A stretch of DNA of 64,000 bases from the human T2T-CHM13v2.0 reference genome, Homo sapiens, in assembly GCA_009914755.4 (NCBI GenBank), contig CP068257.2, forward strand, positions 32,512,001 through 32,576,000, in the 5' to 3' direction. The number at the start of each line of letters is the position of its first letter. Position 1 is the first letter of the stretch. This document shows positions 6,515 through 9,662 of this stretch, in pieces. The notes under the pieces are model-generated. The model saw only the letters and a list, made by a program, of their open reading frames with translations, was not told the origin of the DNA and searched no databases. The translations under genes were made by a program, and so were the position numbers.

Positions 6515-8239
6515 CATCCATGGAATGCTAGTTTTTCTTACATCCCTGCCAACACTTGGTGTGGTCAGCCTTTTTAATTTTATGGCACTTTAGTAGGTAT
6601 CTCTTTGTGGTTTTAATTTGCATTTCTCTCATGACTAATGGCTTTAGGCATCTTTTCATGTGCTGCTTTGCCATCGTATGTCTTCTGTGAAATGTCTGTT
6701 CAAATCTTATGACCATTGTTTAAAAGTTTTTTTAAATTAAGTTTTGAGAGTTATTTGTATTCTAGATACAAGTCCTTTATCAGACTTCTAATTCGCAAAT
6801 CTTAGTGGCTTTTTATTCAAAGAGCAGTTTTTAATTTTGATGAAATCTAATTTATCAATTTTTTCTATTATGGATTTTGGTTTTGGTGTTGTGTCTAAGG
6901 AAACTTTGCTTAATCCAAATTTACAAAAGCTTCTAAGTTTTATAGCTTTATATTTTACATTTAAATCTGTCCCATTTTGAGTTAATTTTTTAAATGGTAC
7001 AAGTAGGGAAGAAAGTTCGGTTTTTTTGCGTGTGGATACTGGATTATTTTAGCACCATTTGTTGTAAATCTCTATTTTTGTACTCCATTCTAGTCTTTTG
7101 ATCTCTCTGTGTATCTGTACATGAATATCATACTGTCTTGATGGCCATAGCTTTATAATAAGTCTTGAAATCAGGTGGTGTTAGTCCTTCAACTTACATT
7201 CTCTATCAGAGTTGTTTTGGCTGTTTTAGATCCATTATGAACTTTCTAATCAATATTCTAGGGTTTTGATTGAGGTTCTACTGAATGTCAATAGATTTTA
7301 TTTCAGTAAAATAAATAATAGATCTCAATTTTTGTTTAACTTGGAGAGGGTTGACATCTAAATTTTGAGTCTTCTTACCCGTGAACAAGATATACCTGAT
7401 AGATTTTGTTTCTTTCAGCAGCGTTTTGTAGTTTTGCATACCTTTTGTCTGATTTCTCTGCAAGTATTGAATGTTTAATTCAAGGTCTGATTATTTGTTA
7501 CTAGTATATAGAAATAACATTGATTTTTGTATCTTGCAATCCTGCTAAACTCATTAGTTCTATTTTTTTTATAGATTTCTTAATACTTTCTCAAAACACA
7601 ATCATGTCATATGCAAATAAGACAGTCTCACTTTTTGCTTATCAGTCTAGGTACCTATTCTTTTTCTTGCCTTACTGCACTGGCTAGAACCTCCATTTCA
7701 GTGTTGAATAGAAGTGACAGTGGACTTTCTGGTTTGTTCCCAGTCTTAGGGGAAGAACATTTAGATATTCACCAGCTGGTGAAATGTCAGCTGTAGATTT
7801 TTCAAAGATGCTCTTTATAAGTTTGAGGGAGGTCACTTCTATCCCTAGTTTGCTGAGATTTTTTTTTTTTTAATCAGGAATGGCTATGGATTTTGTTAAA
7901 TGCTTTCATTTGTGTTTGTTGAAATGATCATATGGTGTTTCTTTTTTAGTTTGTTAATATGTTTTAATTTGAATTACATTTTTTTTCAAATGTTAAGCCA
8001 ATCTTGCATTCTTGGGATAAAGCCTGCTTGGTCATGGTATATTGTATTTTTTAATATATGATAGTAGTGAATTTGCTAAAATTTTGTTTAGAATTTTAAA
8101 GTGTGTATTCTTGAGGGACATTCATCTGATTTCTTGTAATGTCTTTGGTTTGGGTATAGGGTAATGCTGGCTTCACAGAACAAATTGAGATGTGTCTTCC
8201 TTTTTTCTCGGTGAATTTGTATCAGAATTGGTATTTTTG

Positions 8240-8507
8240 TCAGATGAGTAGGTTGCGAAAATTTTCTCCCATTTTGTAGGTTGCCTGTTCACTCTGATGG
8301 TAGTTTCTTTTGCTGTGCAGAAGCTCTTTAGTTTAATTAGATCCCATTGGTCAATTTTGGCTTTTGTTGCCATTGCTTTTGGTGTTTTAGATGTGAAGTC
8401 CTTGCCCATGCCTGTGTCCTGAATGGTAATGCCTAGGTTTTCTTCTAGGGTTTTTATGGTTTTAGGTCTAACATTTAAGTCTTTAATCCATCTTGAATTA
8501 ATTTTTG
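8240..8507 (-). mobile_element. Young L1PA insertion, inverted 5' segment (twin priming)
   Basis: Near-consensus L1PA ORF2 in antisense: minus-strand ORF 8173-8517 reads '[25 protein letters not shown]...[43 protein letters not shown]'. It is far less diverged than the flanking old L1. Confidence 0.75.
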
Positions 8508-9421
8508 AACTACTCATCTAACAAAGGGCTAATATCCAGAATCTACAATGAACTCAAACAAATTTACAAGAAAAAAACAACCCCATCAAAAAGTGGGCAA
8601 AGGACATGAACAGACACTTCTCAAAAGAAGACATTTATGCAGCCAAAAAACACATGAAAAAATGCTCACCATCACTGGCCATCAGAGAAATGCAAATCAA
8701 AACCACAATGACATACCATCTCACACCAGTTAGAATGGCAATCATTAAAAAGTCAGGAAACAACAGGTGCTGGAGAGGATGTGGAGGAATAGGAACACTT
8801 TTACACTGTTGGTTGGACTGTAAACTAGTTCAACCATTGTGGAAGTCAGTGTGGCGATTCCTCAGGGATCTAGAACTGGAAATACCATTTGACCCAGCCA
8901 TCCCATTACTGGGTATATACCCAAAGGACTATAAATCATGCTGCTATAAAGACACATGCATACATATGTTTATTGCGGCACTATTCACAATAGCAAAGAC
9001 TTGGAACCAACCCAAATGTCCAACAATGATAGACTGGATTAAGAAAATGTGGCACATATACACCATGGAATACTATGCAGCCATAAAAATGATGAGTTCA
9101 TGTCCTTTGTAGGGACACGGATGAAATTGGAAATCATCATTCTCAGTAAACTGTTGCAAGGACAAAAAACCAAACACCGCATGTTCTCACTCATAGGTGG
9201 GAATTGAACATTGAGAACACATGGACACTGGAAGGGGAACATCACACTCTGGGGACTGTTGTGGGGTGGGGGGAGGGGGGAGGGATAGCATTAGGAGATA
9301 TTCCTAATGCTAAATGACGAGTTAATGGGTACAGCACACCAGCATGGCACATGTATACATATGTAACTAACCTGCACATTGTGCACATGTACCCTAAAAC
9401 TTAAAGTATAATAAAAAAAAA
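8508..9421 (+). mobile_element. Young L1PA insertion, sense 3' segment: ORF2 C-terminus, 3'UTR and poly(A)
   Basis: Plus ORF 8606-9112 reads '[60 protein letters not shown]...[20 protein letters not shown]', the L1 ORF2 C-terminus. The typical L1PA 3'UTR follows: 'ggggtggggggagggggg...cctaatgctaaatgacgagttaatgggtacagcacaccagcatggcacatgtatacatatgtaactaacctgcacattgtgcacatgtaccctaaaacttaaagtataataaaaaaaaa'. TSD 'aattggtattttt' occurs at 8227-8239 and again at 9421-9433. Confidence 0.8.
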
Positions 9422-9662
9422 TTGGTATTTTTGCCTTAAATGTTTGGTGTAATTCACCAGTGAAGTCATTTGGGCCTGTAATATTCTTTGTGGGAAGCTT
9501 TTAAACTTCTTTAATAAGATATAGGGCTTAAGGGTTTAAACTACACATATTTCGTTAATAAGATATAGGGCCATTCAAGTTATCTGTACTTCTTGAGTGA
9601 GGTTTGGTAGTCTGTGTTTTTCAAGGAATTTGATCATTTCATCTGAGTTGTTAAATTTAATG

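What the first reader, a model, noticed from the sequence alone, without database searches (positions are those of the whole stretch)
8227..9433. Twin-priming L1PA insertion: 268-bp inverted 5' piece, 914-bp sense 3' piece, 13-bp TSD, about 14-bp junction overlap
The young L1 is bounded by the direct repeat 'aattggtattttt' (8227-8239 and 9421-9433). Inside, 8240-8507 is antisense L1 ORF2 and 8508-9421 is sense L1 ORF2 through the 3'UTR with a 9-nt poly(A). The inverted piece ends, in L1 coordinates, at '...cctactcatctgaca' and the sense piece starts at 'aactactcatctaacaaaggg'. Both pieces therefore share about 14 bp of the same L1 segment, which is the microhomology or short duplication expected from twin priming. 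Its low divergence against the flanking highly diverged antisense L1 shows it is a much later, primate-era event. It is a clean worked example and may be a lineage-specific or polymorphic insertion.
Basis: seen in the sequence. Interest (0 to 1): 0.55.

Follow-up and report, generated by a model that had tools for sequence, protein, structure and literature searches.

The report
Ordinary 5'-inverted (twin-primed) L1 insertion
This is one old-ape-era LINE-1 retrotransposon copy whose front part was pasted in backwards during insertion, a well-known by-product of how LINE-1 copies itself that affects about one in five insertions, so it is a clean textbook example and not a discovery.

Summary
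An exact 14-nt direct repeat, AATTGGTATTTTTG (8226-8239 and 9420-9433), brackets a 268-nt antisense L1 ORF2 piece (8240-8507) and a roughly 910-nt sense piece (8508/8510-9419: ORF2 C-terminus, 3'UTR, 7-9 A).

In ORF2 numbering the inverted piece covers nt 2870-3137 and the sense piece starts at nt 3126. The overlap is therefore 12 nt strictly, with one mismatch. It is 16 nt if the last four bases of the repeat (TTTG) are counted, because they complement the next L1 bases (CAAA). That 4-nt match is the internal priming site expected from twin priming.

Removing the insert and one repeat copy restores a single reading frame of the old antisense host L1. Both pieces carry about 1.5% private substitutions and only pre-L1HS states. 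The 3' end belongs to an intermediate class that looks like L1PA3. This suggests an insertion roughly 6-16 Myr ago, so a polymorphic or human-specific insertion is unlikely.

Twin priming is strongly supported. Two details are atypical: the poly(A)-side nick site is non-canonical (AATT/C), and the internal junction has no microhomology. Presence in other primates could not be tested.

Verdict: already known kind, low interest.

The parts
8226..8239 (.). Left copy of the target-site duplication, AATTGGTATTTTTG
   Evidence: Exact 14-nt direct repeat (D10). These are the only two copies in the window and the shuffle expectation is 0.06. It sits exactly at the outer boundary of the L1 sequence.
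8236..8239 (+). TTTG, the 3' end of the top-strand overhang. It is complementary to L1 RNA CAAA (ORF2 nt 3138-3141), giving 4 nt of primer/template microhomology at the internal priming site.
   Evidence: The inverted repeat I1 runs 4 nt into the duplication. L1 copies read CTCATCTGA|CAAAGGG.
8240..8507 (-). Inverted 5' piece: L1 ORF2 nt 2870-3137 (ORF2p T957 to D1046), 268 nt, open frame, no tail of its own
   Evidence: The translation matches ORF2p 957-1047 of PDB 8uw3/8sxt. It is 96-98% identical to young L1 copies. It carries 4 private substitutions.
8508..8509 (.). Two ambiguous bases, 'aa', at the internal junction. They are either untemplated filler or L1 'aa' followed by a 1-nt deletion in 'cc'. 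There is no microhomology at the junction.
   Evidence: Comparison with the bases that flank both breakpoints in seven L1 copies.
8510..8521 (+). The 12 nt of L1 (ORF2 nt 3126-3137) present in both pieces. This is the sense copy, CTACTCATCTAA. The inverted copy is at 8240-8251. They differ by one G/A mismatch at 8520.
   Evidence: (I1).
8510..9207 (+). Sense piece, coding part: ORF2 nt 3126 to the stop codon (9205-9207). A 4-5-nt deletion in the A-run near 8576 and a 1-nt deletion near 9088 break the frame.
9208..9412 (+). L1 3'UTR with the pre-L1HS haplotype CCTAATGCTAAATGACGAGTTAAT
   Evidence: The L1HS-specific primer sequence GGGAGATATACCTAATGCTAGATGACACA comes from PMC7035633.
9413..9419 (+). 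Poly(A) tail, 7 A (9 if the first two A of the duplication are counted)
9420..9433 (.). Right copy of the target-site duplication
5241..8225 (-). Left part of the old antisense host L1 (ORF2p about aa 1210 down to about 489)
   Evidence: The tblastn hits are collinear. A single-frame alignment of ORF2p aa 465-615 runs across the reconstructed empty site.
9434..10961 (-). Right part of the same old antisense host L1 (ORF2p about aa 487 down to 66), itself interrupted by an antisense Alu at about 9665-9950

Best explanation
This is a single LINE-1 retrotransposition event resolved by twin priming.

Shown by the sequence:
- The target, inside an old antisense L1, was nicked on both strands 14 nt apart, which left two 3' overhangs.
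- The bottom-strand end (...CCAATT-3') sits next to the poly(A).
- The top-strand end (...TATTTTTG-3') is followed directly by the antisense copy of L1 ORF2 nt 3137 down to 2870.
- That top-strand end overlaps the next four L1 bases, CAAA.

Inferred:
- The bottom-strand end primed on the poly(A) tail of an L1 RNA and copied it up to ORF2 nt 3126.
- The top-strand end annealed by 3-4 nt to the internal CAAA of the same RNA and primed a second cDNA running towards the RNA 5' end for 268 nt.
- The first cDNA read 12-16 nt past the second priming site, which produced the short duplication.
- The two cDNA ends were then joined without microhomology, by an end-joining type of repair.

The source element was a pre-L1HS primate L1 of an intermediate class that looks like L1PA3. 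The copy has since decayed: about 1.5% private substitutions, two frameshifting deletions and a shortened poly(A). It has no function.
For: - The exact 14-nt duplication at the outer boundaries is unique in the window.
- The inverted piece corresponds to ORF2p 957-1047 and the sense piece to ORF2p 1040/1042-1275 plus the 3'UTR. The pieces are therefore contiguous in L1 with a 12-16 nt overlap.
- The inverted piece has no poly(T).
- There are 4 nt of TTTG/CAAA complementarity at exactly the position where the second primer must anneal (I1).
- Private substitutions are 4/268 against 13/898, both about 1.5%, Fisher p = 1.
- At every residue where L1HS ORF2p (8uw3) differs from the nearest contaminant L1 copy (L036) and the element's own state is informative, it has the non-L1HS state (the I983/N site does not discriminate). 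In the inverted piece these are R970, M990, A1005 and K1035. In the sense piece they are K1182, D1183, M1241 and I1252.
- Removing the insert plus one duplication copy gives an uninterrupted, single-frame antisense ORF2p alignment (aa 465-615) across the junction.
- Published surveys report 5' inversion in 18-22% of L1 insertions. The two cDNAs overlap in 42% of inverted germline insertions, with a median overlap of 12 bp (quartiles 4-17) (PMC12016303). The mechanism is described in PMC2837659.
Against: - The nick site on the poly(A) side is non-canonical: bottom strand 5'-AATT/C, or CAAT/T, or CCAA/T, instead of TTTT/A.
- No microhomology is present at the internal junction. The literature reports that this occurs in some cases.
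- Subfamily identity of the 268-nt piece cannot be resolved finely, because that part of ORF2 hardly differs between young subfamilies.
- No empty orthologous site was available for a direct check.
Confidence: 0.9

Rival explanations
1. Two independent L1 insertions landed side by side: an antisense ORF2 fragment and, separately, a sense 3' fragment.
For: Nested and adjacent L1 insertions are common. The host here is itself an L1 that also received an Alu.
Against: - Only one repeat pair exists, and it brackets the composite.
- The antisense piece has no poly(T) and ends inside ORF2.
- The breakpoints coincide in L1 coordinates to within 12-16 nt.
- Private divergence is equal in the two pieces.
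Confidence: 0.02
2. A plain 5'-truncated L1 was inserted, and its 5' 268 nt were inverted later by a DNA rearrangement.
For: None specific. Small inversions do occur.
Against: One inversion breakpoint would have to fall exactly at the boundary between duplication and L1. It would also have to create a 12-nt duplication and a 4-nt match to the target overhang. That geometry is predicted by twin priming and not by a random inversion.
Confidence: 0.03
3. Two-RNA variant (dual priming, or template switching): the two overhangs primed on two different L1 RNA molecules of the same family.
For: The sequence cannot tell one RNA from two identical ones. The 12-16-nt overlap needs no strand displacement if two RNAs were used. 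A dual-priming idea is discussed in PMC2837659.
Against: The two priming and termination points lie within 16 nt of each other on a 6-kb RNA. That is expected if both cDNAs were copied from one RNA and would be a coincidence with two. The survey found the cDNA ends within 20 bp of each other in 46% of inverted insertions, which also points to a single template.
Confidence: 0.05

Closest known systems
Twin-primed (5'-inverted) L1 insertions, Ostertag & Kazazian 2001 model (as described in PMC2837659 and surveyed in PMC12016303)
   Same: - A single duplication surrounds an inverted 5' piece and a sense 3' piece that ends in poly(A).
- The pieces are adjacent in L1 coordinates with a short overlap. 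The 12-16 nt seen here compares with a published median of 12 bp.
- Microhomology links the target overhang to the internal priming site.
- The piece lengths, 268 and about 910 nt, are in the published germline range (medians 571 and 751 bp).
   Different: The poly(A)-side nick is not at a canonical TTTT/A site, whereas the top-strand nick can be read as TTTT/G. No microhomology is present at the internal junction. Neither is outside reported variation.
L1PA3 (or neighbouring L1PA2/L1PA4) primate L1 subfamily
   Same: - It is pre-L1HS. The 3'UTR reads GACGAG, not the L1HS-specific GACACA, and CTAAATG, not CTAGATG.
- It carries the intermediate-class state at 26 of 28 class-informative sites.
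- It is 2.2% from that class consensus, with about 1.5% private substitutions.
   Different: The classes were built ad hoc from human L1 copies found as contaminants in metagenome contigs. The name L1PA3 rests on my recollection of those sequences.

Membership tests
Twin-primed 5'-inverted L1 insertion | One target-site duplication flanks the whole composite | tested here: met
   The exact 14-nt repeat lies at 8226-8239 and 9420-9433. It is unique in the window, and 0 of 100 shuffles gave two matches.
Twin-primed 5'-inverted L1 insertion | The 3' piece is in sense orientation and ends in poly(A) next to the 3' duplication copy | tested here: met
   The sense ORF2 C-terminus, 3'UTR and 7-9 A at 9413-9421 directly precede the right copy.
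Twin-primed 5'-inverted L1 insertion | The 5' piece is inverted, lacks its own tail, and abuts the 5' duplication copy with its L1-3'-most end | tested here: met
   8240-8507 is antisense ORF2p 957-1046. D1046 is the end next to 8239. There is no poly(T).
Twin-primed 5'-inverted L1 insertion | The two pieces are adjacent on the L1 sequence, with a small deletion or duplication at the inversion point | tested here: met
   The inverted piece ends at ORF2 nt 3137 and the sense piece starts at nt 3126. The overlap is 12 nt, or 16 with the microhomology.
Twin-primed 5'-inverted L1 insertion | The 3' end of the target overhang is complementary to the internal priming site on the L1 RNA | tested here: met
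   TTTG (8236-8239) pairs with L1 CAAA directly 3' of the inverted piece's end (I1). Four nucleotides is short, so this is supportive and not decisive.
Twin-primed 5'-inverted L1 insertion | Both pieces come from the same source and are the same age | tested here: met
   Private substitutions are 4/268 and 13/898, Fisher p = 1. Pre-L1HS residues are present in both pieces. Resolution is limited for the 268-nt piece.
Twin-primed 5'-inverted L1 insertion | Removing the insert restores a continuous pre-insertion site | tested here: met
   The host antisense L1 aligns to ORF2p aa 465-615 in one frame across the reconstructed junction. The host is collinear from 5241 to 10961. No real empty allele was available.
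Twin-primed 5'-inverted L1 insertion | A canonical L1 endonuclease motif (TTTT/A and close variants) at the poly(A)-side nick | tested here: not met
   The bottom-strand options are AATT/C, CAAT/T or CCAA/T. This feature is frequent but not defining. It was found in about 63% of germline L1 insertions (PMC12016303).
Twin-primed 5'-inverted L1 insertion | Microhomology at the internal junction between the two cDNAs | tested here: not met
   There are 0 nt of microhomology at 8507|8508, plus two ambiguous bases. The literature reports this feature as often weak or absent (PMC2837659), so it is not defining.
L1PA3-type subfamily | Lacks L1HS diagnostic bases and residues | tested here: met
   The 3'UTR reads CTAAATGACGAG where the L1HS primer reads CTAGATGACACA. 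ORF2p has non-L1HS states at the discriminating L1HS-specific sites.
L1PA3-type subfamily | Best match to the curated L1PA3 consensus over the neighbouring subfamilies | not testable with these tools
   No labelled consensus library was available. As a proxy, the element carries the state of the intermediate ad hoc class at 26 of 28 informative sites. Over the last 498 nt it differs by 2.2% from that class, 3.6% from the younger class and 5.4% from the older class.
L1PA3-type subfamily | The insertion is shared by the species expected for that age (great apes, absent from Old World monkeys) | not testable with these tools
   Flank-specific patterns found nothing in the collections I could scan. 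None of the 120 metagenome loci carries the flanks.

The most novel reading that the evidence does not exclude
The order of the two priming events may be the reverse of the textbook model.

The only canonical-type endonuclease motif at this site is on the top strand, TATTTTT/G. It can be read that way because of the 4-nt ambiguity. That is the strand that primed the inverted piece at an internal CAAA. The poly(A) was primed from a non-canonical AATT/C nick.

If the TTTT/G nick came first, the insertion began with internal priming and the poly(A)-primed cDNA was the second event. The chance of a canonical motif falling within the five allowed nick positions is about 3.7% in this window. This was a post hoc, single-locus test.
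Probability: 0.25. Interest if true: 0.2.

Novelty: already known. Interest (0 to 1): 0.08.

Why it matters
It matters little. The locus is a decayed, non-functional L1 copy nested in an older L1, and its structure is the standard outcome of a mechanism described in 2001. Its value is didactic. Every breakpoint can be read to the base, including the 4-nt internal priming match and the 12-16-nt duplicated segment.

The only mildly interesting point is that the canonical endonuclease motif lies on the strand that primed the inverted piece. That bears on the order of nicking in twin priming only if it is seen systematically across many loci.

Tried and rejected
- A scan of viral contigs for an L1 pattern found nothing.
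- Two scans of bacterial and archaeal genome contigs for flank-specific patterns, aimed at an orthologous filled or empty site among contaminant sequences, found nothing.
- None of the 120 metagenome-derived L1 loci extends into this locus's flanks. Presence or absence in other primates and polymorphism therefore stay untested.
- The original twin-priming paper (PMC311219) is not held. I relied on PMC2837659 and PMC12016303 for its content.
- The subfamily-selective primer paper (PMC12432230) has no primers in the region covered by this element, so it could not be used to name the subfamily.
- A nucleotide search of the reconstructed empty site against young L1 did not cross the junction, because the host is too diverged at about 66% identity. 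The protein-level search did cross it.
- My first L1 reconstruction wrongly took 'CA' from the duplication as part of the inverted piece. This was corrected from then on.
- I rejected three alternatives: two independent insertions, a later inversion, and an assembly artefact. The reasons are given under the rivals.
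Full report
**What is in the sequence.** The region 8226-9433 was read directly and scanned for repeats. An exact 14-nt direct repeat, AATTGGTATTTTTG, lies at 8226-8239 and 9420-9433. These are the only two occurrences in the 64-kb window even with one mismatch allowed. None of 100 dinucleotide-preserving shuffles produced two.

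Between the repeat copies, 8240-8507 read on the minus strand is an open frame...[89 protein letters not shown]. It matches residues 957-1047 of human LINE-1 ORF2p in solved structures (8uw3, 8sxt, 8c8j) at E about 1e-50.

From 8508/8510 onward the plus strand carries ORF2p residues 1040/1042-1275, with the stop codon at 9205-9207. Two frameshifting deletions, near 8576 and 9088, break this frame. The 3'UTR follows, then 7 A (9413-9419) plus two A shared with the repeat.

**Breakpoints to the base.** I used the ORF2p numbering.
- The inverted piece covers ORF2 nt 2870 (second base of codon T957) to nt 3137 (second base of D1046), which is 268 nt.
- The sense piece starts at nt 3126 (third base of T1042).
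- The strict overlap is therefore 12 nt. CTACTCATCTGA is the reverse complement of 8240-8251, and CTACTCATCTAA sits at 8510-8521. They differ by one G/A mismatch at 8520.

This detail matters. L1 copies read CTCATCTGA|CAAAGGG, and the last four bases of the left repeat copy are TTTG, the complement of CAAA (inverted repeat I1). The 3' end of the top-strand overhang is therefore complementary over 4 nt to exactly the L1 RNA position from which the inverted cDNA starts. This is the internal priming site of the twin-priming model as described in PMC2837659.

At the internal junction (8507|8508) the bases flanking both breakpoints in seven L1 copies show no shared nucleotides. The 'aa' at 8508-8509 is either filler or L1 'aa' followed by a 1-nt deletion.

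**Empty-site test.** I joined 7200-8239 to 9434-9660, which removes the insert and one repeat copy. I then searched this with an intact ORF2p taken from a contaminant L1 contig (L036). A single tblastn alignment in one reverse frame covers ORF2p aa 465-615 and runs straight across the joint. In the unedited window the host L1 hits are collinear in antisense orientation from 5241 (aa about 1210) to 10961 (aa about 66). Only the young L1 and an Alu interrupt them. The repeat is therefore a true target-site duplication inside one old L1. That host is about 66% identical to young L1 at the nucleotide level and about 35% at the amino-acid level.

**Same source and same age for the two pieces.** No labelled L1 consensus library was available. 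I therefore collected 120 human L1 copies present as contaminants in metagenome contigs, using a conserved 23-mer.
- Both pieces find the same nearest copies: 96-98% identity for the inverted piece and 96-97% for the sense piece.
- I projected all copies onto the element and listed its differences from the majority of the nearest copies, marking the differences seen in essentially no other copy as private. This gives 4 private substitutions in 268 nt and about 13 in 898 nt. Both are about 1.5%, and Fisher p = 1.
- Compared with L1HS ORF2p (8uw3), the element has the non-L1HS residue at the discriminating L1HS-specific positions in both pieces. In the inverted piece these are R970, M990, A1005 and K1035. 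In the sense piece they are K1182, D1183, M1241 and I1252.

**Subfamily and age.** The 3'UTR reads CCTAATGCTAAATGACGAGTTAAT. The published L1HS-specific primer is GGGAGATATACCTAATGCTAGATGACACA (PMC7035633), so the element is not L1HS.

The contaminant copies fall into three 3'UTR classes:
- one that shares the G of L1HS (CTAGATGACGAG...TTAGT);
- an intermediate one (CTAAATGACGAG...TTAAT);
- an older one that lacks the C (ATG-TAAATG).

The element carries the intermediate-class state at 26 of 28 sites where the class consensus sequences differ. Over the last 498 nt it differs by 2.2% from the intermediate class, 3.6% from the younger class and 5.4% from the older class. From my memory of the curated consensus sequences, this intermediate class corresponds to L1PA3. 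That label is a recollection and was not tested.

There are 17 private substitutions in 1166 nt (Poisson 95% interval 0.85-2.3%). Using the roughly 0.15-0.2% per Myr neutral rate commonly applied to primate L1 (my knowledge), the insertion is very roughly 6-16 Myr old. Papers in the library place L1HS, L1PA2 and L1PA3 within about the last 12.5 Myr (PMC6639357). That age makes a human-specific or polymorphic insertion unlikely. I could not test it directly.

**Mechanism.** The geometry fits twin priming at every point. Two nicks 14 nt apart leave two 3' overhangs.
1. The bottom-strand end ...CCAATT-3' pairs with the poly(A) and primes the sense-piece cDNA.
2. The top-strand end ...TATTTTTG-3' pairs with the internal CAAA and primes a cDNA towards the RNA 5' end. 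This appears as TCAGATGAGTAGG... immediately after the left repeat copy.
3. The first cDNA ends 12-16 nt beyond the second priming site, which gives the duplication.
4. The two cDNA ends are joined without microhomology.

A recent long-read survey found 5' inversions in 18% of germline and 22% of somatic L1 insertions. It found overlapping cDNAs in 42% of inverted germline insertions, with a median overlap of 12 bp (quartiles 4-17). Median piece lengths were 751 bp (non-inverted) and 571 bp (inverted) (PMC12016303). This locus sits in the middle of those distributions.

**Rivals.**
- Two independent insertions would need two repeat pairs and a tail on the antisense piece. Neither exists.
- A later inversion would need a breakpoint exactly at the repeat boundary and would not create the overlap or the 4-nt match.
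- A two-RNA variant cannot be excluded from one locus. It would make the 16-nt proximity of the breakpoints on a 6-kb RNA a coincidence.

**Atypical details.** The nick on the poly(A) side is not at a canonical endonuclease motif. The bottom-strand options are AATT/C, CAAT/T or CCAA/T. The top-strand nick, within the 4-nt ambiguity, can be read as TATTTTT/G, which is a canonical-type TTTT/G site. In this window 0.75% of nick positions are canonical. The chance of at least one canonical site among five adjacent positions is 3.7%. This raises the possibility that the internally primed cDNA came from the first nick. It is a post hoc observation at one locus and would need a genome-wide tabulation.

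**Verdict.** The feature is a textbook twin-primed L1 of a known kind, with low interest.

Noticed in passing
window 8226-8239 / 9420-9433 (nick sites): The canonical-type endonuclease motif (TATTTTT/G) lies on the top strand, which primed the inverted piece. The poly(A)-side nick is non-canonical (AATT/C). The chance of a canonical motif within the five allowed positions is about 3.7%.
   Followed up: partly
window 5241-10961: One old, highly diverged L1 in antisense orientation hosts both the young L1 and an Alu. It is collinear with ORF2p from about aa 1210 to aa 66, at about 35% amino-acid identity to young ORF2p. Its subfamily was not determined.
   Followed up: partly
window about 9665-9950: An antisense Alu, starting with poly(T) followed by GAGACAGAGTCTCGCTCTGTCACCCAGGCTGGA..., is inserted in the same old L1, 230 nt to the right of the young L1. 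Its flanking repeats and subfamily were not examined.
   Followed up: no
window 10048-10123: A perfect tandem duplication of a 38-nt unit, CCTTACCTCTTTTTACTCAACAGTCTGGCTATAGAGGC, in two copies at 100% identity (D1). It lies inside the old L1 region. Perfect identity suggests a recent duplication.
   Followed up: no
window 44706-46979: A second old L1 ORF2 remnant, in sense orientation, with about 30-35% amino-acid identity to young ORF2p and an internal gap (aa 549 to about 1058).
   Followed up: no
loci L036, L029, L025, L005 (metagenome contigs): Contigs labelled as environmental or human-associated metagenomes carry human L1 with a completely open 1275-aa ORF2. This is host contamination, probably collapsed consensus-like assemblies of young L1. 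It was useful here as a stand-in for a consensus library.
   Followed up: partly
locus L038 (OHAQ01001990.1), positions 144-248: A 10.9-kb stretch of a 15-kb contig has only a 105-nt, 99% L1 match near one end. The rest carries long open frames that do not look like L1. It may be a chimeric assembly that joins human L1 to other DNA.
   Followed up: no
window 8392-8393: Two adjacent private substitutions in the inverted piece (consensus ATG to ACA, ORF2p M993 to T). One other, moderately diverged copy in the sample shows the same pair. The cause could be a transient CpG intermediate or a shared minor variant.
   Followed up: no
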